In this document: one piece after another, positions 32,608-41,960 of the stretch | How the letters are laid out: every line of letters begins with the position of its first letter | Numbering within the stretch: position 1 is the first letter of the stretch | From: Candidatus Coatesbacteria bacterium | GTDB taxonomy: Bacteria; RBG-13-66-14; B26-G2; JAUVZD01 | DNA: 64,000 bases | Direction of reading: 5' to 3' | NCBI GenBank assembly: GCA_030602715.1 | Contig: JAUVZD010000001.1 | Location: 364,557 to 428,556 of the forward strand | Position numbers and translations under genes: made by a program | The notes under the pieces: model-generated | What the model saw: only the letters and a program-made list of their open reading frames with translations | Databases searched by the model: none | What the model was told of the DNA's origin: nothing

Positions 32608-33561
32608 CTACATAAAATATGTAATTCCTATCCTGTGGGATAAGCCGAACTGTTCGGGGAAGGAGACCGCATAGTCCACCCCCACCATCTTCAGCCGAAC
32701 TCCCACCCCGGCAAAGGGCTCGTCGGTTGCGGTGCGATAACCCCCACGCACGCTCAGTAGCTCCATCAAGGTAAACTCCCCCCCGAAGCGACCGCTCAAT
32801 CTTCCCTCCAGGTCCACTTCCATCTCCCCGCTGGCGGTGAAGCCGTAAAGGGAGCCGAATGCGGTTCCCAGACGAAAATGCTGGAGGGGAATGTCCGACT
32901 GCTCCTTCAGACGAATATTGGGGGATACCAGGTTCTCAACGGTAAAAGCGATGCGGAAGAGGGAGTGGAAATAGCGCATAAAGCCGATATCAATCCCGAA
33001 GCCGGAATCGGAATACTTATCCAACTTGCTATAAAATATCTTGAAATTGAATCCGATGTAGGTTGAGGGAGGAATCTCCTCCTCAAAATCTCCGCCGAAA
33101 CCCTTCCCCCAAGCCAGGGCAATCAGCGTCTCGGTGGGGATGAAGGTGCGTCCGGTGGGACCGAAGTCAACCTCTTCCATCTCCCCGAACTGCATATGGA
33201 CAAAACCCGCCCCCAAGGTGCCCAGAGTTCCGAAGCCGATGGTCAGTGGTTTTGCCAGACCGAGATAGGAGATGGTGTAGCCGGGAAGCTCCGTAAAGGG
33301 GCGAGAGAAACTAAGGGAAAGCTCGCCCTCCTCCAACTGCCCCAGTCCGGCGGGATTGTAGAGGAAAGCCGAGGCGTCGTCAGCCACGGCGGTGAAGGCT
33401 CCGCCAAAGCCCACTGCCCGGGCGGATATGCCCTGGTCAAGAAAAGCAAACGGCTCTCCCCCTGCAGGTCCGTCCACTGCCGGGACTTGAGAGACGAAAA
33501 GTAAAAATATAAATGTTAAAACGCCGAAAAGGATAAAGTATCTATAAGACATTAAGTTCAC
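32608..33561 (-). CDS. PorV/PorQ-like (UPF0164) outer-membrane beta-barrel protein
   Basis: Signal peptide, FLDQGISARAVGFGGAFTAVADDASAFLYNPAGL, DIG, SVRGGY, SHRIGITYF. Confidence 0.87.
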   Translation of the reverse strand: MNLMSYRYFILFGVLTFIFLLFVSQVPAVDGPAGGEPFAFLDQGISARAVGFGGAFTAVADDASAFLYNPAGLGQLEEGELSLSFSRPFTELPGYTISYLGLAKPLTIGFGTLGTLGAGFVHMQFGEMEEVDFGPTGRTFIPTETLIALAWGKGFGGDFEEEIPPSTYIGFNFKIFYSKLDKYSDSGFGIDIGFMRYFHSLFRIAFTVENLVSPNIRLKEQSDIPLQHFRLGTAFGSLYGFTASGEMEVDLEGRLSGRFGGEFTLMELLSVRGGYRTATDEPFAGVGVRLKMVGVDYAVSFPEQFGLSHRIGITYFM

Positions 33562-33674
33562 CTTTCAAAACCACTTGCACAGATGTATAGTTCAAGAGGT
33601 AATACTAAGAATAACACTATTAAAGTTTTTATGCAAGGGATATTTTACCCTTTATCGGTGGCTTTCTCCGCCAG

Positions 33675-34138
33675 TCCGGGCGTATGTAATGTACGCGGTG
33701 AACGCGGTCGTAATCGTCGCGGCGGCCAGCTTCCTTCCGGGTCTGGGCGCGCGCATCGCCGAGATGACGGGCCTGGGGCAGACCTTCGTCGGGAGCCTGT
33801 TTATCGCGATGTCCACGTCGCTGCCGGAGCTGGTCGTAACGATGGCGACGGTACGCATCGGCGCGATTGACTTGGCCCTGGGGAACCTCTTCGGGAGCAA
33901 CCTATTCAACGTCGCGATTCTGGCGGCCGACGACATCATCTACACAAAAGGCCCTATTCTGGCCGACGTCTCGAGCAACCACCTGATAACCGCCGCGTCG
34001 GCGATTGCGATGACGGCGGCGGTGGTCGTAGGCCTGACCTACCGAACTATAAAGCAACCGTTCCTCCTGGCCTGGGATTCAATGGGCATCCTCGCGATCT
34101 ACTTCGTCAGCACCGTGATGTTGTATACGTTGAGGTGA
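33675..34138 (+). pseudogene. 3' half of a Na+/Ca2+ (CaCA) antiporter
   Basis: Alpha-repeat STSLPELVV...GNLFGSNLFN. Only about 5 TMs and no credible start. Abrupt switch to CpG-rich codons near 33675. Confidence 0.75.
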
Positions 34139-34256
34139 ATATATTTAAAGAAGCACATCCATCATTTATGTTGACTTGTAGTTAGTAATATGCTAAATTA
34201 GTAAAAAATCTAGGTTTGAATTTAGAATAACTCATTATTACTTAGGGGGCTAAGAT

Positions 34257-35795
34257 ATGCCAGAATGGGTTGTGGAGCTATTAAGCATTTTAAAATGGCC
34301 CGCCTGTGTGGCGTTCATTGTAATAATCGCCCTCCTATTATTCAAGAAGGGGATACTCAAACGTTTAAATTCGATTAAGCAAGTTAAGTTTAAAAAAGGA
34401 GACTCTGAGGCTAAAGTAGATTTAGGAAAAGACGAACTCGAAACGGAACAACTAACCGAATCTAAACCTAAACTAATAAACGAAGAAGCCCCGGCGAAAG
34501 AAGAAATACCAAAGAAGCCGAAACCGGAAAAGCCGAAAGATTGGTTTTCCGAAATGATTATAGCCTTTATTAATAGGGATACCGATAAAGCTAAAGAAGC
34601 ATATGGAAAATTGCAAAAATCGGAGAAAGAAGAAATACCGAAATTGAAGAACGAAGTTATTTACCAATCTAATCTATATATGTACGGCATAGATTCCGCC
34701 GGTCTAGAAAATTTATACGAATTAGCTAAAAACGAAAAAGTATCCGCGTTTGCTTGGTATAGGATAGGTATGTGCTACGAGAAAAACGGCGAATTAGAAA
34801 AAGCTTGCTCTGCTTACGAAAACGCCGTCGAAAAAACCGATAATGACGATCAATACATCCGATATATTATAGAATTGGCCAACTGCTTATACTTAAACGG
34901 TAATAAACTAGAAGCTTTTAATAGATTAGCGGATTCCAGCCTATTGACTTCAGATTCGGATAATGTTTATAAAGTATACGAAGCATTAGGGAAACTATAC
35001 GGAAAAGAAAACGACCCGCTATCACGTGCTCTCGCTCTTGAATTAGCGTTAGAAAATAACCCTTCTAAATCCGGCGTAAAATTTGATACCGCATATTCAT
35101 ATAGCGATGCCGATTTACCATTACTCTCTATGTTACATTATAAAAACCTATTAAATATTAAACCTGAAAATCGTATTGCTACTAATAACTTAGGAGTATT
35201 TTACGACAAATTGGGCCTAAATATAAAATCCGTCGATTGTTTCAGGAAAGCCGCTGATAACGAATTACCGCTCGCTTTAGGTAATCTTTCTAAAATATAC
35301 TCAAGTTCCGGCTTTAAAAGAGAAGCTATGGAGTTAAATGAAAAGGCTAAAAAACTGGAGAATATCCCCGGCCCAATAGCCGAAGCCATTACCGCTTTAT
35401 CTAATAAGGAGGAGAAAGAGGAAGAAACGGAAACTAAATTATTATCAACAGCGTTGGAAGAACAACGGTTTTTGCGGCAATTCGCGAAAGCGTATATACA
35501 GAAAACCGATACTATCCCTAAAATAAAAGGTATTTGGCAAATACCGGAAAAAGGGGAATTAACTATTGAACAAAACGATAATATCATAAATGGTTTATCA
35601 GAATGGGATAATAAGAAATTCGAAATCGAAGGTAAGCTAAAAAACCGTGGTCTATTATTTAAGACCTCAGAATATAGTTACAGTTGGAAATTCGGTAAAG
35701 GATTCGGTATCGTTTCGGATAATCAACAAGTAATCAACGCCATGTTAGTATCCGGTAACGAAGTCGACTTCTTGAAGCTAACTAAGTCCGATTAA
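34257..35795 (+). CDS. AT-rich membrane-anchored TPR-like protein
   Basis: N-terminal TM, TPR-like repeats (AWYRIGMCYEKNG, ATNNLGVFY). Upstream TTGACT-17-TAAATT promoter and GGGG RBS. Confidence 0.75.
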   Translation: MPEWVVELLSILKWPACVAFIVIIALLLFKKGILKRLNSIKQVKFKKGDSEAKVDLGKDELETEQLTESKPKLINEEAPAKEEIPKKPKPEKPKDWFSEMIIAFINRDTDKAKEAYGKLQKSEKEEIPKLKNEVIYQSNLYMYGIDSAGLENLYELAKNEKVSAFAWYRIGMCYEKNGELEKACSAYENAVEKTDNDDQYIRYIIELANCLYLNGNKLEAFNRLADSSLLTSDSDNVYKVYEALGKLYGKENDPLSRALALELALENNPSKSGVKFDTAYSYSDADLPLLSMLHYKNLLNIKPENRIATNNLGVFYDKLGLNIKSVDCFRKAADNELPLALGNLSKIYSSSGFKREAMELNEKAKKLENIPGPIAEAITALSNKEEKEEETETKLLSTALEEQRFLRQFAKAYIQKTDTIPKIKGIWQIPEKGELTIEQNDNIINGLSEWDNKKFEIEGKLKNRGLLFKTSEYSYSWKFGKGFGIVSDNQQVINAMLVSGNEVDFLKLTKSD

Positions 35796-35853
35796 CTATG
35801 ATACGACATATTAAAGCCCTCTTTCTATAACAATATACTCTCTCTTCATAAGG

Positions 35854-35910
35854 TTGCGTACTCTCGCGATAGACTGGGGCGAAGCCCGCGTGGGCCTCGC
35901 GATGACCGCG
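35854..35910 (+). pseudogene. 5' fragment of Holliday junction resolvase-like RuvX/YqgF
   Basis: LRTLAIDWGEARVGLAMT matches the YqgF N-terminus. Similarity stops after about 18 codons, at the duplicated block. Confidence 0.65.
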
Positions 35911-35916
35911 GCGCCC

Positions 35917-36421
35917 GCTTCGACTGGGGAGACAAGAACGTATCCGCCGCTTCGATGGAGTATTATCTGGTCGGCGGTAAATCTCTGTCCGGACCTTTCG
36001 AGGGCGAAGATTGTATCCCCTTCAAACAGTCCTCTTATCCACAAACACACTGTTATCAAAGGGATTCTCCGAAGTGTAGCCCATCTTTCTAAAGTGCTCC
36101 CGACGGTGCTCTATCAGCTTCCTGCGCCCCATCTTCATCAGGGGCTTGAGATGCCCCAGGATTGCTTCCTTCAGCGCCTTTGCTGAAGCCTCATAGTCGG
36201 TATGAGCTCCGCCCAGCGGCTCCTGAACCACCTCATCCACCACCCCCAGCTTGAACAGGTCCCGGGCGGTAATCCTGAGTATTCGCGAGCTCTCCGGGGC
36301 TTCCGCCCTATCCCGCCACAGTATGGCGGCGCAACCCTCAGGGGATATGACCGAATAGTAGGCGTTTGAAAGTATCAGCACCACATTGCCGACGCCGATG
36401 CCCAAAGCCCCCCCACTTCCC
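35917..36421 (-). repeat. Diverged second copy of the accA 3' end plus about 100 bp of downstream DNA
   Basis: Aligns to 38286-38790 at an offset of 2369 nt. 16 substitutions counted by eye; 9 of the 11 in the coding part are synonymous. Confidence 0.95.
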
Positions 36422-36512
36422 GGACGGTCTTCGCCGGCGGGTTGAACTTGTTGCGGAGCGAAAAGAAGACGGCGGAAAGCCAAAAACCGACCTTGCCGTC
36501 TCTTTTGGCCAT
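36411..36512 (-). pseudogene. 5' fragment of a class I methyltransferase fused to the accA copy
   Basis: MAKRDGKVGFWLSAVFFSLRNKFNPPAKTVREVG resembles small MTase N-termini. It breaks off in GGGAAGTGGG, which also reads as the accA copy. Confidence 0.5.
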
Positions 36513-36541
36513 AAGCAACCCGGGGATTCAGTTGTTAATTT

Positions 36542-38002
36542 TTATTCGCCGTTCGTTCCTTCCAAATCCGCCAGACCCTCCCGGGCAAAATCCAAAGACC
36601 CGGTAAAATCTATGCCTGATTCGAGAACCGTTTCGAACTCGGCCCGGGCTTCGTCGGTCCTCCCCGTTTCCGAATAGCATTTGCCGAGGTAGTTACGCGC
36701 CAAGACTTCAATAATGGGTTTTACGCTGCCGCCTTTACCCTGCAGGCAATTATTCAACGCCCCTATGGCTTCGTCGAACTTACCCTGTTCCAGATAGGTC
36801 TGTCCCAGGTACAGCCACGCCCACGCGTTATCGGGCTCGGCCTCGGTTTTCTTCAGGAATCCGGCCTCGGCTTCCTCGTAACGGCCGATCTGTAAATACC
36901 CGACGGCCATCTCGGTCGACGCCTTTTCTCGGGCAGTCCCGAGGTCGTCGCAGCCGTCGCCGAACAAAAAGAACCCGGCCGCAACCGGCGGTTCCGACAG
37001 CCCTTCCCACTCGAACGCCGGCGGATAAGAGACCAGGCCGCCCGGCTGTAGAAACCTGAACTCCCGCTCCAACCCGAGGTCCGGGTGCTCGACCTTAATG
37101 TTGTTGCCGACCGAGACGATAAGCCGGTTGGGGTATAGATTGCCGAACAGGTAATCCCCGCTCTTTTCCGGGATACCCGTTTTTTCCATAAAGCGTTCAA
37201 TCTGCTCCTCGTCGTTAAAATTCGGGTCATGCCCTTCCACCAATTCAGCGACGGTCGCATCCGCTGGTATCCAACCGTACGGCGGTACGTAGAACTCCGC
37301 CCACTGGTGCCCCTCCTTGTCGAACCAGACGCAGGTCACGGTTCTGGCGGGAATACCCTGGGCCCGACACAAAGCGCAAAAGACTACGCTGTACTCGCCG
37401 CAGTCGCCCTTCAGGCGCACGAACGAGTTAGCGGCGCCCCGAAGGCTCAAGTCCGGGTATTCGTACGTCATGTTGTCGACGACCCAATCGAATATTAAAT
37501 GGGCTTTAACGTACGGGTTTTTCTCGTCGCCCACTATCTCTTCGGACTTGGCGATTATCGCGTTCGTTACGTCAATCCAGTACTCCGATTTGGTGTAACG
37601 GACGTACTTCTCGGATTCCACGTCGTACGGTTCAACGCCGGCGGGGTCGGCGTCCACGTTTACTTCATAGACCGCGTAATCGAAATCGTAATAGAACAAC
37701 AATCCGCCGCTCTCGTCGAAATCCGTAACGCGCCAGAAGATTATCCGGTTCCCGCCCAGGTCGTCCTCGACCACGTCGTAAGGCTCGGGGTATATCTCGC
37801 CCATCTCGACGTCCTGCCCCCGATGGTTTACCGGCTGAGCCACCCAGAGCCGGAGTTCGCCGTCATCGCCTTCTGCGGATACGTTTTCGACGAAAAACCA
37901 GAACCTTCCCTTGCTCGTTTCCCGAGCGCCCTCCTCCGAAGCGACGGCGAACGCCCCCAGAGCCAATATTACCGTTAACGTCATAACCGATAAATAGCGC
38001 AC
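36542..38002 (-). CDS. Secreted transglutaminase-like cysteine enzyme with C-terminal TPRs
   Basis: GGAGG RBS and GTG start at 38002, signal peptide, triad GDCGEYS / GHQWAEFY / WIPADAT, TPRs. CpG-rich. Confidence 0.9.
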   Translation of the reverse strand: MRYLSVMTLTVILALGAFAVASEEGARETSKGRFWFFVENVSAEGDDGELRLWVAQPVNHRGQDVEMGEIYPEPYDVVEDDLGGNRIIFWRVTDFDESGGLLFYYDFDYAVYEVNVDADPAGVEPYDVESEKYVRYTKSEYWIDVTNAIIAKSEEIVGDEKNPYVKAHLIFDWVVDNMTYEYPDLSLRGAANSFVRLKGDCGEYSVVFCALCRAQGIPARTVTCVWFDKEGHQWAEFYVPPYGWIPADATVAELVEGHDPNFNDEEQIERFMEKTGIPEKSGDYLFGNLYPNRLIVSVGNNIKVEHPDLGLEREFRFLQPGGLVSYPPAFEWEGLSEPPVAAGFFLFGDGCDDLGTAREKASTEMAVGYLQIGRYEEAEAGFLKKTEAEPDNAWAWLYLGQTYLEQGKFDEAIGALNNCLQGKGGSVKPIIEVLARNYLGKCYSETGRTDEARAEFETVLESGIDFTGSLDFAREGLADLEGTNGE

Positions 38003-38084
38003 TTCTTTACCTCCTGTTTGTATTTGATAACTCTTACACCGATAGACTTCTCCCACGTATGAGGGCGACCAATTAAACGTGAAG

Positions 38085-38280
38085 CTACAGACCCTCCATT
38101 TCTGCCCACAAGTCCGCGCCCCGGGCCCAATCGGCGAGCCACGCCTCGAAGGTCGCCTTGTGCGCGACGAGCTGAGCCGGCGGCGCCAGCGCGCCCGGGT
38201 TCGGTTCCGATAAACTCCGCCGGGTCAAACCGGTAGCGGCGGTTGAAACCCCAGGTGCTTAACCCGCCGAAGGCCGCGAA
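38085..38280 (-). pseudogene. Degenerate 3' fragment of an unidentified donor gene
   Basis: GC3-rich codons in two frames (GFAAFGGLSTWGFNRRYRFDPAEF, then LAPPAQLVAHKATFEAWLADW...EGL-stop). No start. Confidence 0.35.
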
Positions 38281-38285
38281 TCCCG

Positions 38286-38790
38286 GCTTCAACCGGGGAG
38301 ACAAGAACGTATCCGCCGCTTCGATTGAGTATTATCTGGTCGGCGGTAAATCTCTGTCCGGACCTTTCAAGGCCGAAGATTGTATCCCCTTCAAACAGTC
38401 CTCGTATCCACAAACACACTGTTATCAAAGGGATTCTCCGAGGTGTATCCCATCTTTCTAAAGTGTTCCCGGCGGTGCTCTATCAGCTTCCTGCGCCCCA
38501 TCTTCATCAGGGGCTTGAGATGCCCCAGGATTGCTTCCTTCAGCGCCTTTGCTGAAGCCTCATAGTCGGTATGAGCTCCGCCCAGCGGCTCCTGCACCAC
38601 CTCATCCACCACCCCCAGCTTTAACAGGTCCCGGGCGGTAATCCTGAGTATTCGCGAGCTTTCCGGGGCTTCCGCCCTATCCCGCCACAGTATGGCGGCG
38701 CAACCCTCAGGGGATATGACCGAATAGTAGGCGTTTGAAAGTATCAGCACCACATTGCCGACGCCGATTCCCAAAGCTCCCCCGCTTCCC
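38286..38790 (-). repeat. Resident copy of the 505-bp accA 3' duplication
   Basis: Partner of 35917-36421. Confidence 0.95.
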
Positions 38791-39392
38791 CCCTCACCGA
38801 TGACATTGATGATTATGGGCACGCCCAGATTGTGCATCTCCTTGATGTTTTTGGCTATTGCCTCCGCCTGACCCCGCTCCTCAGCCTCTATGCCGGGATA
38901 TGCGCCGGCGCTGTCCAGGAAGGTGAGTATGGGGATGTTGAACTTGTCGGCGATGCGCATAATCCGAAGCGCCTTGCGAAATCCCTCGGGATGGGGAGAG
39001 CCGAAGTTACGCATCAGGTTCTCCTTGGTGGTGCGCCCCTTCTGATGACCGACGACGCACACCGTTTGCCCGTCCAGCCGCCCGAAACCGGCGAGGATTG
39101 CCTTATCGTCGGCGAAGAGCCTGTCGCCGTGCACCTCAACGAAGTCAGTTATCATCAGCTTGACGAAGTCGTAGGTGTAGGGGCGCCGAGGATGGCGCGC
39201 CACCTGCACCCTCTGCCAGGGATCAAGATTGGAGAAAATTTCCCGGCGCAACTCGTCGGCTCTGTTCTCCAGCTCCTCTATCTTCTGGGAGAGATCCAGC
39301 CCCTCCTCCTCCATCATCTTCTTAAGCTCGGCGACCTTCTGCTCCACTTCATATATCGGTCGCTCAAAATCCAGCACCCCGAATTCCGCCAT
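38391..39392 (-). CDS. accA: Acetyl-CoA carboxylase carboxyltransferase alpha subunit
   Basis: LDFERPI, ARHPRRP, HGDRLFADD, GHQKG, GAYPGIEAEERGQ, GEGGSGGAL, YSVISPEGCA. Confidence 0.98.
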   Translation of the reverse strand: MAEFGVLDFERPIYEVEQKVAELKKMMEEEGLDLSQKIEELENRADELRREIFSNLDPWQRVQVARHPRRPYTYDFVKLMITDFVEVHGDRLFADDKAILAGFGRLDGQTVCVVGHQKGRTTKENLMRNFGSPHPEGFRKALRIMRIADKFNIPILTFLDSAGAYPGIEAEERGQAEAIAKNIKEMHNLGVPIIINVIGEGGSGGALGIGVGNVVLILSNAYYSVISPEGCAAILWRDRAEAPESSRILRITARDLLKLGVVDEVVQEPLGGAHTDYEASAKALKEAILGHLKPLMKMGRRKLIEHRREHFRKMGYTSENPFDNSVFVDTRTV

Positions 39393-39426
39393 CTATGAAT
39401 ACCTCCGATTGAGGGGCGGGGGTTGG

Positions 39427-40332
39427 TCAGTCGAACAGTCTTCCTTGTTTTTGAAAATCGGCGATACGCTTATCTGCCAATTGACAATATTTTTTATCTA
39501 TCTCATACCCGACAAATTTTCTTTCTAATCCCAAAGCGGCAATAGCCGAAGCCCCACTGCCCATAAAAGGGTCAAGGACAACATCGCCATTGAAAGTATA
39601 TAGTTGGGTCAATCTATATGGTAGCTCTATCGGAAAAGGAGCAGGATGACCAACTTTTTTCGCCGACTCCGGCTTGAAACTCCAAATGCTTTTGGTGAAC
39701 TCTAGAAATTCGTCTCGGGAGATAGTATCTTTACGATCACCCATCTTCTTCCTGGAAAAAGAACCTTTGGAGAATACCAAGATATATTCGTGGATATCTC
39801 GCAGAGTGGGATTTGAAGCCGAAAGCCAACTTCCCCACGCAGTAGAGGGACTTGAGCTCTCCGCCTTGTTCCAAATTATCTCACCCCGCATAAGAAAGCC
39901 TAAATCAAGCATATCTCGGATTATAAAAATATGGAGGGGGATATAAGGTTTTCTCCCCAGGTTAGCTATGTTAATACACGCCCTTCCGCCGGGTACCAAA
40001 AGGCGATATACTTCCTCCCAAACCCGCTTGAGAAATTCCAGGTATTCCTCCAAGGTCAAATCTTGGTCGTAGTCCTTTCCCACATTGTATGGGGGTGAGG
40101 TCACCATAAGATGTATACAGGAGTCTGGTAACTCATCAATTCTTTCCGATGATTTACAAAGGATTTGGTTCAGGTATTGCTGAGGGACTGGGTTTTCTAC
40201 ATATTCTAATTTCGTTTCTTGAGGCAATCCCTCATACAAACGGCTGGAATAAAAGGAAGAAGAGTCGTGACCTATTCTTCCCGGTGAGCCGAAAGACGAA
40301 GTGCGAGTGTTTCTTTTTTTAGACGAGGACAT
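39427..40332 (-). CDS. Amino (N4-C/N6-A) DNA methyltransferase, beta class; partner of the ThaI-like REase
   Basis: VTSPPY precedes LDPFMGSG; HPAPFP. Start overlaps the REase stop region. Confidence 0.93.
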   Translation of the reverse strand: MSSSKKRNTRTSSFGSPGRIGHDSSSFYSSRLYEGLPQETKLEYVENPVPQQYLNQILCKSSERIDELPDSCIHLMVTSPPYNVGKDYDQDLTLEEYLEFLKRVWEEVYRLLVPGGRACINIANLGRKPYIPLHIFIIRDMLDLGFLMRGEIIWNKAESSSPSTAWGSWLSASNPTLRDIHEYILVFSKGSFSRKKMGDRKDTISRDEFLEFTKSIWSFKPESAKKVGHPAPFPIELPYRLTQLYTFNGDVVLDPFMGSGASAIAALGLERKFVGYEIDKKYCQLADKRIADFQKQGRLFD

Positions 40333-40969
40333 TGCTGTCACCCTCCTTCCAATAGTCAACCCATCTCTTATAAGGATTATATTCTATCTTTGACCTCTGC
40401 CATTGTATATAAATAGCAATGGTCTCTTTGTCTTCTGCTAATGTTTTAAGGGCTTCTCCATCGATCTCCACGCCCCTAGGATTAGTTCCCGGTTTAGGCA
40501 ATTTAATATAGACATCCCTACCTATCCTGTTAAAAAGCTTCCTCTGAACTTTAAGTGGGATATAATAAAATCCCCCGCAATCATTCCAGTTGATTTGAAT
40601 GAAAAGCATATCATAACTAGGGCGGTAATTCTCCCGAAAATCACTTGCTTTCTGGATGTCAACTGTCCAAATTAACTTTACCCCGCTAAACCTAGTACTA
40701 GTAATAGTTTTTATTGCAATCGGACTACCAAACAGTCTTACATCCACCTCTGGCTCGGTTATAGGTATTTCTATATCTACATTTTCCTCGCCGAACTTAT
40801 AAATTAAAAGAGCCACAACTATCCTCTCCCTTAGTGACCCAACCTCCATCCCAATCCTTCCCGCCCTTGAACTCTCAATTTCCGCCAATTGAAATAGAAA
40901 GGGCAAACGTTGTTTGATTCTATAAACAAGTTTTTCATCCTCAAACAATTCTTTAAATTGACCTAGCAT
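40319..40969 (-). CDS. ThaI-family type II restriction endonuclease
   Basis: LPFLFQLAEIESSRAGRIGMEVGSLRERI, EPEVDV, AIKT, KLIWTVD and PGTNPRGVE recalled as ThaI-family motifs. Adjacent to an MTase. Confidence 0.8.
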   Translation of the reverse strand: MLGQFKELFEDEKLVYRIKQRLPFLFQLAEIESSRAGRIGMEVGSLRERIVVALLIYKFGEENVDIEIPITEPEVDVRLFGSPIAIKTITSTRFSGVKLIWTVDIQKASDFRENYRPSYDMLFIQINWNDCGGFYYIPLKVQRKLFNRIGRDVYIKLPKPGTNPRGVEIDGEALKTLAEDKETIAIYIQWQRSKIEYNPYKRWVDYWKEGDSNVLV

Positions 40970-41050
40970 TCTTCACCTCAAAAAATACGGTCAAACCTTC
41001 TCTACTCCAAAAAAAACCCTCCAAAACTTAAAAATAAACATTAGGTTGCA

Positions 41051-41150
41051 CTACCATCTTAACATTACTGCCTTCCCCACATTCCTCTCCCAGAACACAC
41101 CGTCCTCATATCCCTGAATACGCCCATCACCCTCCATCTTCGCCATCCCC
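41051..41150 (-). pseudogene. Diverged 3' stub of the 42701-43660 DNA methyltransferase
   Basis: Reads MEGDGRIQGYEDGVFWERNVGK versus AEEDGRIQGYEDGLFWERNVVGK. 41079 aligns to 42741. Confidence 0.85.
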
Positions 41151-41239
41151 TCATCCTTAAACCAAAAAACATTATCATTGGGGCTTGGAAGAAGCAGGAT
41201 AATCAAACTGCTCTACCCTATATTATACCAAATCCCGAC

Positions 41240-41960
41240 TCACTTCAGACAGTAGAGATACCCGTCCCAGCTCCCGAAATAGACCCTGCCCCCCACCACA
41301 CAAGGGGATGAAAACACGTCGTCCCCGGTCTCAAACTCCCAGATTAGCTTGCCGCTGTCAGCAGAGAGACAGTAGAGGCGGTCGTCCTCACTGCCCACAT
41401 AGACCCGCTCATCAACCACACAGGGGGAGGAGAGCACATCATCCCCGGTCTTAAACTTCCAGATAAGCTCGCCGTCAGCAGAGGACAAGCAGTAAATATG
41501 GTCGTCCCTGCTCCCCACATAAACCCGGTCAGCGACCACACAGGGGGAGGAGACCACTTCACCCCCGGTCTCAAACTTCCAGATTAAACTACCGTCCTCA
41601 ATTGAGAGACAGTAAATATTACCGTCGTCACTCCCCACATAGACCATCTCATCATAAAAACAGGGGGAGGAGCGGACCCAGTCCTCCGCCTTGAACCTCC
41701 ATGCAAAACCGCCGTCATCGGCGAAAAGACAGAAGATGTCACCTGCAAAATTTCCAATGAAAACCCTGCTCTTCACAACCAGGGGGGAAGAGAGGTCCCA
41801 CTCTCCTATCCCAAATCTCCAAATCAGTTCGCCGTCGGCGGCAGAGAGACAGTAGAGACGGTCATCCCAACTCCCGGCATAGACCCTGCCCTCCACCACA
41901 GAGGTAGAGGATATCACCATATCGCCGGTCTTAAACTCCCAGATTAATCTGCCGTCGCCA
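41240..41960 (-). repeat. About six tandem 120-nt (40-aa) coding repeats
   Basis: The CCCCGGTCT(C/T)AAACT(T/C)CCAGAT-like motif recurs with an exact 120-nt period near 41322, 41443, 41563, 41683, 41803 and 41923. Confidence 0.85.

What the first reader, a model, noticed from the sequence alone, without database searches (positions are those of the whole stretch)
35917..38790. 505-bp accA 3' duplication with synonymous-biased divergence and a microhomology junction
Seen: 35917-36421 matches 38286-38790 with 16 substitutions; 9 of 11 coding changes are synonymous. The second copy begins inside GGGAAGTGGG, shared with the interrupted MTase fragment. Both copies end at about the same point roughly 100 bp past the accA stop, where different cargo follows. 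Inference: the copy came from a related strain's functional accA, not from recent self-duplication or misassembly, which fits homology-facilitated illegitimate recombination at a fixed variable slot.
Basis: partly seen in the sequence, partly recalled or inferred. Interest (0 to 1): 0.65.

Follow-up and report, generated by a model that had tools for sequence, protein, structure and literature searches.

The report
Strain-hybrid joint behind accA
A 505-base repeat of the end of the fatty-acid gene accA is real and marks the spot where DNA from two strains of an uncultured sediment bacterium was spliced at a 9-10-base chance match; it is a clear natural example of a known kind of recombination scar, not a new mechanism.

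Summary
Bases 35917-36421 match 38286-38790 with 16 substitutions; 11 are coding, 9 of those synonymous.

The repeat lies inside a 4.7-kb composite insert (33678-38395). Same-species contigs lack it: there accA runs straight into the UPF0164 gene and rny.

Between the copies is a piece cut from a conserved cluster: the 3' end of an SMI1_KNR4 gene, a whole transglutaminase/TPR gene, and the first 32 codons of a small SAM methyltransferase. That methyltransferase is fused to accA inside GGGAAG(T/C)GG.

The joint is not an assembler artefact. A unitig at about 108x in the likely source run spans it, all segments have similar depth, and a contig from a second study also spans it.

The two copies are different population alleles. 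At 9 of 16 differing sites, both states occur in single-copy accA loci of other strains. Copy B's flank continues 49 bp into sequence shared with other strains, so a simple insertion with target duplication does not fit.

Best reading: homology-facilitated illegitimate recombination between two strain haplotypes in a strain-variable slot. The donor and recipient roles are unresolved.

The parts
38391..39392 (-). Intact accA, the acetyl-CoA carboxylase carboxyltransferase alpha subunit. This is the 333-aa variant ending ..RTV*.
   Evidence: Pfam ACCA, E = 1.8e-141. It is the annotated 333-aa protein P0248. Sister loci have a 338-aa form ending ..RTGGKSHR*.
38286..38790 (-). Repeat copy B: the last 133 codons of the intact accA plus 105 bp after the stop.
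   Evidence: A 474-bp unitig from run X1 is identical to it at depth 149.5.
38237..38395 (-). 'Long tail', the sequence that replaces the ancestral last codons of accA. The first 34 bp (38395-38362) are a remnant of a transposase (rve) reading frame. Bases 38285-38237 lie beyond the repeat but are shared with other strains.
   Evidence: L169 shares 38395-38362 and then continues as an rve_3 fragment. L171, L172 and an X3 strain continue through 38285-38237. The local alignment of B against L171 scores 56, against a shuffle mean of 14.
38085..38207 (-). 3' fragment (last 41 codons) of an SMI1_KNR4-family gene; its 5' part is missing.
   Evidence: It aligns with the C-termini of the SMI1_KNR4 genes that sit upstream of the transglutaminase gene in L162 and L161.
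36542..38002 (-). Complete transglutaminase-core plus TPR gene (486 aa as annotated; the ORF is open to 38056).
   Evidence: Pfam Transglut_core, E = 8.7e-25, plus TPR families. Orthologues of 79-82% identity lie in the cluster SMI1_KNR4 - TGase - SAM MTase - DUF3795.
36422..36518 (-). 5' fragment (32 codons) of a 177-aa class I SAM-dependent methyltransferase, cut at the joint.
   Evidence: The translation MAKRDGKVGFWLSAVFFSLRNKFNPPAKTVRE matches the N-termini of P0249-P0255 and the L162/L165 genes.
36412..36421 (-). Microhomology at the illegitimate joint: GGGAAGTGGG on the gene strand.
   Evidence: The methyltransferase in L165 reads CCGGGAAGCGGATATT. accA reads GGGGGGAAGCGGGGG (B and all sister loci) or ..AAGTGG.. 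(A). Nine to ten bases are shared.
35917..36421 (-). Repeat copy A: an accA 3' fragment (codons from GSGGALG to the stop at 36022-36024) plus a 105-bp tail. It is out of frame with the methyltransferase stub and is annotated as a 127-aa CDS.
   Evidence: The A-type bases at 35922/35925 and at 36400/36409/36415 sit in X1 unitigs at depths 92.8 and 107.9. The interior 35956-36369 is absent from X1's Logan contigs.
35850..35916 (.). GC-rich 67-bp spacer of unknown origin between copy A and the low-GC gene.
   Evidence: It is not similar to the sequence after copy B (score 17, shuffle p = 0.12).
34257..35795 (+). Low-GC (about 36%) TPR-containing gene of 512 aa; foreign-looking cargo.
   Evidence: No PADLOC hit. 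Found only in run X1.
33689..34138 (+). Half-length Na+/Ca2+ exchanger gene with a single Na_Ca_ex domain. It ends where GC drops.
   Evidence: Pfam Na_Ca_ex matches profile positions 3-150 of 151, in a 187-aa ORF. GC profile.
33652..33677 (-). Right edge of the slot: GGACTG (33677-33672) followed by the ancestral last 20 bases of accA (GCGGAGAAAGCCACCGATAA).
   Evidence: Alignment to L166, L167 and L170. A contig in run X4 joins 33671 to 36027 with 6 shared bases, which is the empty site.
32608..33561 (-). UPF0164/TraF_2-like gene, the ancestral downstream neighbour of accA.
39427..40969 (-). ThaI-like restriction enzyme plus N6/N4 DNA methyltransferase, low GC, directly upstream of accA. A second strain-variable segment.
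   Evidence: Pfam ThaI, E = 1.2e-94, and N6_N4_Mtase, E = 1.4e-47. Absent in L167 and in the X2 and X4 strains, with the breakpoint at 39421/39422.

Best explanation
The window carries a recombinant joint between two haplotypes of one species.

- Haplotype Sb had accA, a long tail, an SMI1_KNR4 stub, the transglutaminase/TPR gene and the SAM methyltransferase.
- Haplotype Sa had accA, a 105-bp tail, a spacer, the low-GC TPR gene, the Na/Ca-exchanger half gene, and then the UPF0164 gene.

A linear piece of one haplotype entered a cell of the other. It recombined homologously on one side, in accA or upstream, or in the UPF0164/rny core. On the other side it was joined illegitimately, where codon 32 of the methyltransferase and an internal accA site share GGGAAG(C/T)GG.

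Both haplotypes carried the accA 3' end. The product therefore has that segment twice: once as part of the working gene (copy B) and once as a dead fragment (copy A).

Shown here: the repeat, the joint and its microhomology, the empty site in sister strains, the allelic nature of the differences, and the different flanks of the two copies.

Inferred: the HFIR mechanism itself, one homologous plus one illegitimate crossover, and uptake of DNA from another strain. Which haplotype was the recipient is unknown. The geometry in which Sb was the recipient and lost the rest of its methyltransferase is the classical one.
For: - Repeat and counts.
- Empty site: L166, L167/L168 and L170 (96-97% nucleotide identity) are collinear with window 44344-38396 and 33677-24499. 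There accA is followed 100 bp later by UPF0164, rny, ymdB and folD. A relative with 81% AccA identity keeps accA-(4HBT)-UPF0164-rny.
- The inter-repeat segment is cut out of a conserved cluster, with truncated genes at both ends.
- Microhomology of 9-10 bp at the joint.
- Allelic origin: both states are seen in other strains at 36400, 36292, 36103, 36073, 36035, 36004, 35957, 35925 and 35922.
- Copy B's flank (38285-38237) is shared with L171, L172 and X3, whereas copy A's is not.
- The joint is real. The X1 unitig 36370-38324 has depth 107.9, and the flanks have depths of 92.8, 80.2 and 95.1. The repeat unitig has depth 149.5, against about 116-156 expected for diverged copies and 160-216 for identical ones. 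An X2 contig from another study spans the joint.
- No integrase or transposase lies in or beside the insert.
- HFIR with one homologous anchor and short microhomology is established experimentally (PMC3240628; the de Vries & Wackernagel 2002 and Prudhomme 2002 papers are cited in PMC5361080).
Against: - Neither parental haplotype was recovered whole. No contig shows accA - long tail - SMI1' - TGase followed by a full-length methyltransferase, and none shows an intact A-type accA followed by the low-GC gene.
- In X2 the last 30 bp or more of the fragment are identical to that strain's intact accA and differ from window copy A at 3 positions. This needs an extra gene-conversion step or a different history.
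- The 11 interior A-type variants are not present in any Logan contig set. They rest on the deposited assembly plus a depth argument.
- Natural competence, or any other DNA-transfer route, is unknown for this lineage.
Confidence: 0.62

Rival explanations
1. Intragenomic origin. In an Sb-type genome, an unequal illegitimate exchange or a replication template switch at GGGAAGCGG made two identical copies. Later homologous recombination with other strains replaced one copy and its downstream flank with another allele.
For: In X2 the fragment beside the joint is identical to that strain's intact accA. The population is visibly mosaic. The synonymous bias alone does not reject post-duplication divergence (P = 0.07-0.12).
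Against: In the window, A-type bases reach to within 7 bp of the joint (36415) and within 6 bp of the other repeat end (35922). A later replacement would therefore need crossovers in the last few bases of homology. It also needs more steps: a tandem duplication of 2.4 kb or more, then loss of the second cargo copy. Nine of the 16 differences are pre-existing polymorphisms.
Confidence: 0.17
2. Campbell-type integration. A 2369-bp circle (accA 3' end, tail, SMI1', TGase, MTase'), closed at the GGGAAGYGG microhomology in a donor, integrated by a single homologous crossover inside the accA 3' region of another strain.
For: A single crossover of such a circle gives exactly repeat-insert-repeat, with the copies differing at all donor/recipient polymorphisms. 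The de Bruijn graph of X1 cannot by itself tell this from a chromosome plus a circle.
Against: After integration, copy A would be followed by the recipient's flank and copy B by circle sequence. The long tail behind B is compatible with that, but the circle has no replication or recombination functions. Such circles are not known to transfer. The model needs the same illegitimate joint plus circularisation, so it is less economical than HFIR.
Confidence: 0.1
3. Integrative mobile element that targets the 3' end of accA and supplies a substitute gene end, as e14 does with icd/icdC. The repeats would be attL and attR.
For: The layout resembles icd-e14-icdC: an intact gene with an element-borne 3' end, a displaced 3' pseudogene and mostly silent differences (PMC13626634). 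The slot behind accA has fixed edges, and one variant holds an rve_3 fragment.
Against: There is no integrase, excisionase or intact transposase in the 1.86-kb or the 4.7-kb segment or next to it. The cargo is a chromosomal piece with genes truncated at both ends. The joint lies inside a methyltransferase coding sequence at a chance microhomology.
Confidence: 0.03
4. Assembly artefact: two strain haplotypes of the accA region concatenated by the assembler.
For: The sample holds several strains (minor X1 contigs at depth about 4.5). Copy A's interior variants are absent from Logan's contigs. The genome is a metagenome-assembled one.
Against: The methyltransferase|accA' joint shares only 9-10 bases, too few for a k-mer join. 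It still sits inside a 31-mer unitig at depth 107.9 in X1 and in an X2 contig from another study. The low-GC segment, the inter-repeat segment and the accA 5' side all have about the same depth as the core (92.8, 107.9, 80.2, 95.1) instead of summing.
Confidence: 0.04

Closest known systems
Homology-facilitated illegitimate recombination (HFIR), shown in Acinetobacter baylyi, Pseudomonas stutzeri and Streptococcus pneumoniae transformation and in E. coli conjugation (PMC3240628; the primary papers are cited in PMC5361080)
   Same: One side of the incoming DNA has extensive homology. The other side is joined at a short GC-rich microhomology (here 9-10 bp). Foreign or rearranged DNA is trapped next to a conserved gene.
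   Different: This is a natural event inferred from sequence in an uncultured lineage, not an experiment. Part of the homologous region ended up duplicated (505 bp), whereas laboratory events usually delete recipient DNA. Donor and recipient roles and the transfer route are unknown.
Orphan 3' fragments and immunity-gene arrays behind T6SS effector, Rhs and CDI loci, explained by sequential displacement (PMC5361080)
   Same: A constant 5' gene acts as the anchor. New modules are added behind it. Displaced 3' fragments of the old gene are kept downstream, and content varies between strains.
   Different: Here the anchor is a housekeeping gene (accA), not a toxin gene. The cargo is a mix of truncated chromosomal genes and, in other strains, defence genes. 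No selective logic such as retained immunity is apparent.
icd / e14 / icdC in E. coli K-12 (Hill et al. 1989, as described in PMC13626634)
   Same: An intact metabolic gene has its 3' end supplied by inserted DNA. A displaced 3' pseudogene copy sits on the far side of the insert. The copies differ mostly by silent changes and can recombine to delete the insert.
   Different: e14 is a prophage with its own site-specific integrase and a defined att core. Here there is no recombinase, and the joint is an accidental microhomology inside another coding sequence.

Membership tests
HFIR product | One end of the acquired segment lies in sequence homologous between the two parents (the anchor). | tested here: met
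   Both sides of the composite region are 96-97% identical to sister strains. accA and the UPF0164/rny core could each serve as the anchor.
HFIR product | The other end is an illegitimate joint at a microhomology of a few bases, between sequences that are otherwise unrelated. | tested here: met
   Codon 32 of the SAM methyltransferase is joined to an internal accA site inside GGGAAG(T/C)GG. There is no similarity beyond it.
HFIR product | The two sides of the joint derive from different genomes (donor and recipient). | tested here: inconclusive
   The copies are different population alleles and carry different flanks. However, no parental haplotype was recovered whole, and X2 shows identical copies beside the joint.
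HFIR product | The DNA entered as a linear fragment by transformation or conjugation and was processed by RecA. | not testable with these tools
   This needs experiments or a cultured strain.
Site-specific integrative element (e14-like) | The element encodes an integrase or recombinase. | tested here: not met
   Pfam scans of all ORFs in and around 33678-38395 found none. Only L169, another strain, has a truncated rve_3 fragment.
Site-specific integrative element (e14-like) | The flanking direct repeats are att sites with a common core at both element ends in independent insertions. | tested here: not met
   The repeat's ends are a chance microhomology inside a methyltransferase gene and a private breakpoint at 35917. 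Other strains break at 35993, 35999, 35967 and about 38237.
Tandem or segmental self-duplication | The copies are identical at birth, so differences should be private mutations of one copy. | tested here: not met
   Nine of the 16 differences have both states in other strains' single-copy loci. Only 4 are A-private and 2-3 are B-private.
Assembler chimera | The joint is unsupported by reads, or the segment depths are additive. | tested here: not met
   The joint lies in a unitig at depth 107.9 in X1 and in an X2 contig. Depths are not additive.

The most novel reading that the evidence does not exclude
The gap between accA codon 330 (GGACTG|) and the retained last 20 bases of ancestral accA (33671/33672) may be a dedicated cargo slot. 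Its variants all begin with the same left-end sequence (TTTGAAGGGGATAC.., a transposase-gene remnant) and share the same right edge. They carry unrelated cargo: a GmrSD-type restriction gene, a low-GC TPR gene, a 429-aa low-GC gene, or the transglutaminase piece. If so, turnover would be driven by an unrecognised site-directed exchange process rather than by repeated accidents, and the 505-bp repeat would be one of its by-products.
Probability: 0.1. Interest if true: 0.55.

Novelty: new member of a known kind. Interest (0 to 1): 0.3.

Why it matters
Natural HFIR-type events are rarely caught with population context around them. Here the record includes the empty site, several alternative fillings of the same slot, the microhomology, and the displaced gene fragment still carrying another strain's allele. 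It also shows an essential gene (accA) acting as the fixed anchor between two strain-variable segments: a ThaI-type R-M system upstream and a cargo slot downstream, in a candidate-phylum bacterium related to Coatesbacteria. Practically, the 505-bp direct repeats at 97% identity are a built-in deletion or amplification switch for the transglutaminase gene, and a trap for assemblers and annotators (the fragment is annotated as a 127-aa CDS). It does not change what is known about recombination mechanisms.

Tried and rejected
The window's own genome could not be searched for the rest of the SMI1_KNR4 - TGase - MTase - DUF3795 cluster or for a second transglutaminase copy.
- The GTDB representative scan with AccA found nothing closer than 59-61% identity, so it gave no sister genomes.
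- The JGI metagenome scan with the transglutaminase protein gave only TPR-level matches of 28-49%.
- Exact look-ups of the window's own AccA and the 504-aa ORF failed. The annotated transglutaminase start differs, and the window's AccA is held only as a cluster member.
- The search for a same-species full-length methyltransferase found only relatives of 76-84% identity to the L165 query enzyme, apart from that enzyme's own 99% entry (P0249). The Sb parent stays hypothetical.
- No run holds copy A's interior k-mers (the maximum share is 0.46, all from shared or partly A-type alleles).
- I tested whether similarity continues beyond 35917. It does not (p = 0.12).
- I looked for terminal inverted repeats at the ends of the 4.7-kb insert and for extra copies of the tail in the window. 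There are none.
- The promoter/terminator scan of the region was uninformative.
- PADLOC found nothing for the low-GC TPR gene, the transglutaminase gene or L169's 429-aa gene.
- The clustering of differences near both repeat ends (Poisson p about 0.03 each) at first suggested mutagenic repair. I rejected this for the tail end because 35922 and 35925 are standing polymorphisms shared with L172. Only 36415 remains private to copy A near the joint.
Full report
**The observation**

The repeat is as described. At a constant offset of 2369, bases 35917-36421 match 38286-38790 with 16 substitutions, and similarity is lost sharply on both sides. Copy B is part of an intact accA (38391-39392, minus strand; Pfam ACCA E = 1.8e-141). 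Copy A is a 3' fragment of accA, from the GSGGALG motif to the stop at 36022-36024, plus the same 105 bp after the stop.

Eleven differences are coding. Nine are synonymous and two are not: L/F at 36253 and T/K at 36035. pN/pS is 0.07.

The joint on the accA side lies in GGGAAGTGGG (36421-36412 on the gene strand).

**What lies between and around the copies**

Read in gene direction on the minus strand, the layout is:

- a ThaI-like restriction enzyme and its DNA methyltransferase (40969-39427, low GC);
- the intact accA;
- a 'tail';
- the last 41 codons of an SMI1_KNR4-family gene (38207-38085);
- a complete transglutaminase-core/TPR gene (38002-36542);
- the first 32 codons of a small class I SAM methyltransferase (36518-36422);
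- the accA fragment with its tail (36421-35917);
- a 67-bp GC-rich spacer;
- a 36%-GC TPR gene on the other strand (34257-35795);
- a half-length Na/Ca-exchanger gene (33689-34138);
- the hexamer GGACTG;
- the last 20 bases of an ancestral accA (33671-33652);
- the UPF0164 gene, rny, ymdB and folD.

In relatives whose transglutaminase is 79-82% identical, that gene sits in a conserved cluster: SMI1_KNR4 - transglutaminase - 177-aa SAM methyltransferase - DUF3795. That cluster is not next to accA. The inter-repeat segment is therefore a piece cut out of that cluster, with a truncated gene at each end.

The methyltransferase in L165 reads CCGGGAAGCGGATATT where accA reads GGGGGGAAGCGGGGG. The joint thus sits in 9-10 shared bases.

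**The empty site**

The AccA protein cluster at 90% identity has nine members. Contigs L166, L167/L168 and L170 are 96-97% identical in DNA to the window. They are collinear with window 44344-38396 and 33677-24499. In them accA (338 aa, ending RTGGKSHR*) is followed 100 bp later by the UPF0164 gene. A contig in run X4 shows the same join, 33671 to 36027 with six shared bases. A relative with 81% AccA identity keeps accA-(thioesterase)-UPF0164-rny.

The window therefore has a 4718-bp composite insert (33678-38395) inside accA codon 330. The insert replaces the last eight codons with V-stop.

**A variable slot, with different edges from those proposed**

Other strains fill the same site differently.

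- L169 shares the left junction and 34 bp. It then continues as the C-terminal part of an rve-type transposase, followed by a 429-aa low-GC gene.
- L171 and a strain in run X3 share 154 bp and then carry a GmrSD/HEC-06-type restriction gene.
- Strains in X4, X5 and X11 diverge at 35999, and a minor X5 strain diverges at 35967.
- On the other side, strains in X1 (minor), X2 and X3 diverge from the window at 33670-33672.

The fixed edges are therefore GGACTG| in accA and |GCGGAGAAAGCC at 33671. The repeat's far end at 35917 is only the private breakpoint of copy A's haplotype.

The R-M system upstream of accA is also present or absent between strains, with a breakpoint at 39421/39422.

**Are the copies alleles or a decayed self-duplication?**

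I compared the 16 differing sites with six single-copy loci and with contigs from three other samples.

- Both states occur elsewhere at 36400, 36292, 36103, 36073, 36035, 36004, 35957, 35925 and 35922.
- Four states are private to copy A: 36415, 36253 (the L-to-F change), 36226 and 36079.
- Two to three are private to copy B: 36409, 36097 and 36000.

A self-duplication followed by mutation predicts only private states.

A second argument comes from the flanks. The 49 bp that follow copy B (38285-38237) are also found behind accA in L171, L172 and X3, which lack the transglutaminase piece. The sequence after copy A is unrelated. Copy B therefore came together with its own native flank. This rules out a model in which the transglutaminase piece was simply inserted into an accA-tail-low-GC genome with a 505-bp target duplication.

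The synonymous bias is significant against pure neutrality (P = 1e-4). It is not significant against a model in which one lineage is constrained and the other is free (P = 0.07-0.12).

**Is it an assembly artefact?**

Run X1 is a marine sediment metagenome that holds 0.91 of the sampled words and is probably the source. Logan's contigs from X1 cover:

- 33523-35955 at depth 92.8;
- 36370-38324 at depth 107.9;
- a 474-bp repeat unitig at depth 149.5;
- 38739 onward at depth 80.2.

The core to the left has depth 95.1. The 107.9-deep unitig contains both edges of the inter-repeat segment. These include the methyltransferase|accA' joint with the A-type bases at 36400, 36409 and 36415. The 92.8-deep unitig contains the A-type bases at 35922 and 35925. 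Ten shared bases cannot create a 31-mer join, and the depths do not add up as they would for two co-assembled strains.

A 208-bp contig from run X2, from a different study, spans the same joint.

There is one weak point. The repeat unitig is entirely B-type, and no run holds copy A's interior words. I attribute this to bubble popping in Logan's contigs. Of its 444 31-mers, 247 would be copy-specific. That predicts a depth of 116-156 for diverged copies and 160-216 for identical ones, against the observed 149.5. This is suggestive, not proof.

**An unexplained detail**

In X2 an 81-bp unitig ends exactly at 36421, and the joint contig starts exactly at 36392. Each has three differences from window copy A. 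The simplest reading is that in X2 the fragment next to the joint is identical to that strain's intact, B-type accA. Gene conversion between the two copies, running to the end of homology, explains this without extra assumptions. It also leaves room for an intragenomic origin followed by allele replacement in the window's lineage. I give that rival 0.17.

**Mechanism**

No integrase or intact transposase lies in or beside the insert. The best-supported account is homology-facilitated illegitimate recombination between two haplotypes: one homologous crossover in the shared core, and one illegitimate joint at GGGAAG(C/T)GG. Experimental HFIR has exactly these ingredients (PMC3240628).

The geometry in which an Sb-type recipient took up an Sa-type fragment is the classical one. 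That fragment would run from inside accA through the low-GC gene into the UPF0164/rny core, and the recipient would have lost the rest of its methyltransferase. The reverse direction is also possible.

The closest described natural patterns are:

- orphan 3' fragments behind T6SS/Rhs/CDI loci, explained by sequential displacement (PMC5361080);
- the icd/icdC pair around prophage e14 (PMC13626634). That case differs in having a site-specific integrase.

**Taxonomy and record**

The transglutaminase and AccA relatives point to a lineage related to Candidatus Coatesbacteria. The window's contig is 438,831 bp in an NCBI MAG. The fragment is annotated there as a 127-aa protein.

**Verdict**

This is a well-documented instance of a known process. 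Interest is modest.

Noticed in passing
window 39422-41150: The ThaI-like restriction enzyme and N6/N4 methyltransferase pair directly upstream of accA varies between strains. It is present in L166, L170 (in part), L172 and an X3 strain. It is absent in L167, X2 and X4, with a sharp breakpoint 29 bp upstream of the accA start. accA is thus a core gene between two variable segments.
   Followed up: partly
L171:1476-2072: In another strain the slot behind accA holds a GmrSD_N / PADLOC HEC-06-type (type IV restriction-like) gene. It is preceded by a terminator-like CCGGGCGTTTTTT and a TTGACA..TATAAT-like stretch.
   Followed up: partly
L169:1029-2788: Another filling of the slot. A C-terminal rve_3 transposase fragment is fused in a different frame onto the accA end. 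A 429-aa Lys/Asn/Ile-rich low-GC protein with no Pfam or PADLOC match lies on the opposite strand.
   Followed up: partly
window 38391-38401 and 33652-33677: The insert changed the AccA C-terminus from ..RTGGKSHR* (338 aa) to ..RTV* (333 aa). The ancestral last 20 bases survive 4.7 kb away. Both protein forms occur in the population, so the last eight residues seem dispensable.
   Followed up: partly
window 33689-34138: The Na/Ca-exchanger gene has a single Na_Ca_ex domain and ends exactly where GC falls from 52% to 37%. It looks like the N-terminal half of a two-domain gene, truncated by the low-GC segment. This would be another illegitimate joint inside the insert.
   Followed up: no
window 36370-38324 versus flanks: In X1 the inter-repeat segment has a somewhat higher word depth (107.9) than the segments on either side (92.8 and 80.2). 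This could be GC bias. It could also reflect a subpopulation with the 2.37-kb unit amplified through the 505-bp repeats, or excised circles.
   Followed up: no
window 33589-33672: X1 itself contains a minor strain (contigs at depth about 4.5) that diverges from the window at 33589 and 33672. X2 and X3 strains carry yet another sequence (..GGCGACTACGTGATAT) at the same right-hand edge of the slot.
   Followed up: no
window 41150-41294: L167, which lacks the R-M pair, aligns at 79% to 41150-41294. The left edge of the R-M insertion therefore lies near 41150, next to the PQQ/beta-propeller repeat gene.
   Followed up: no
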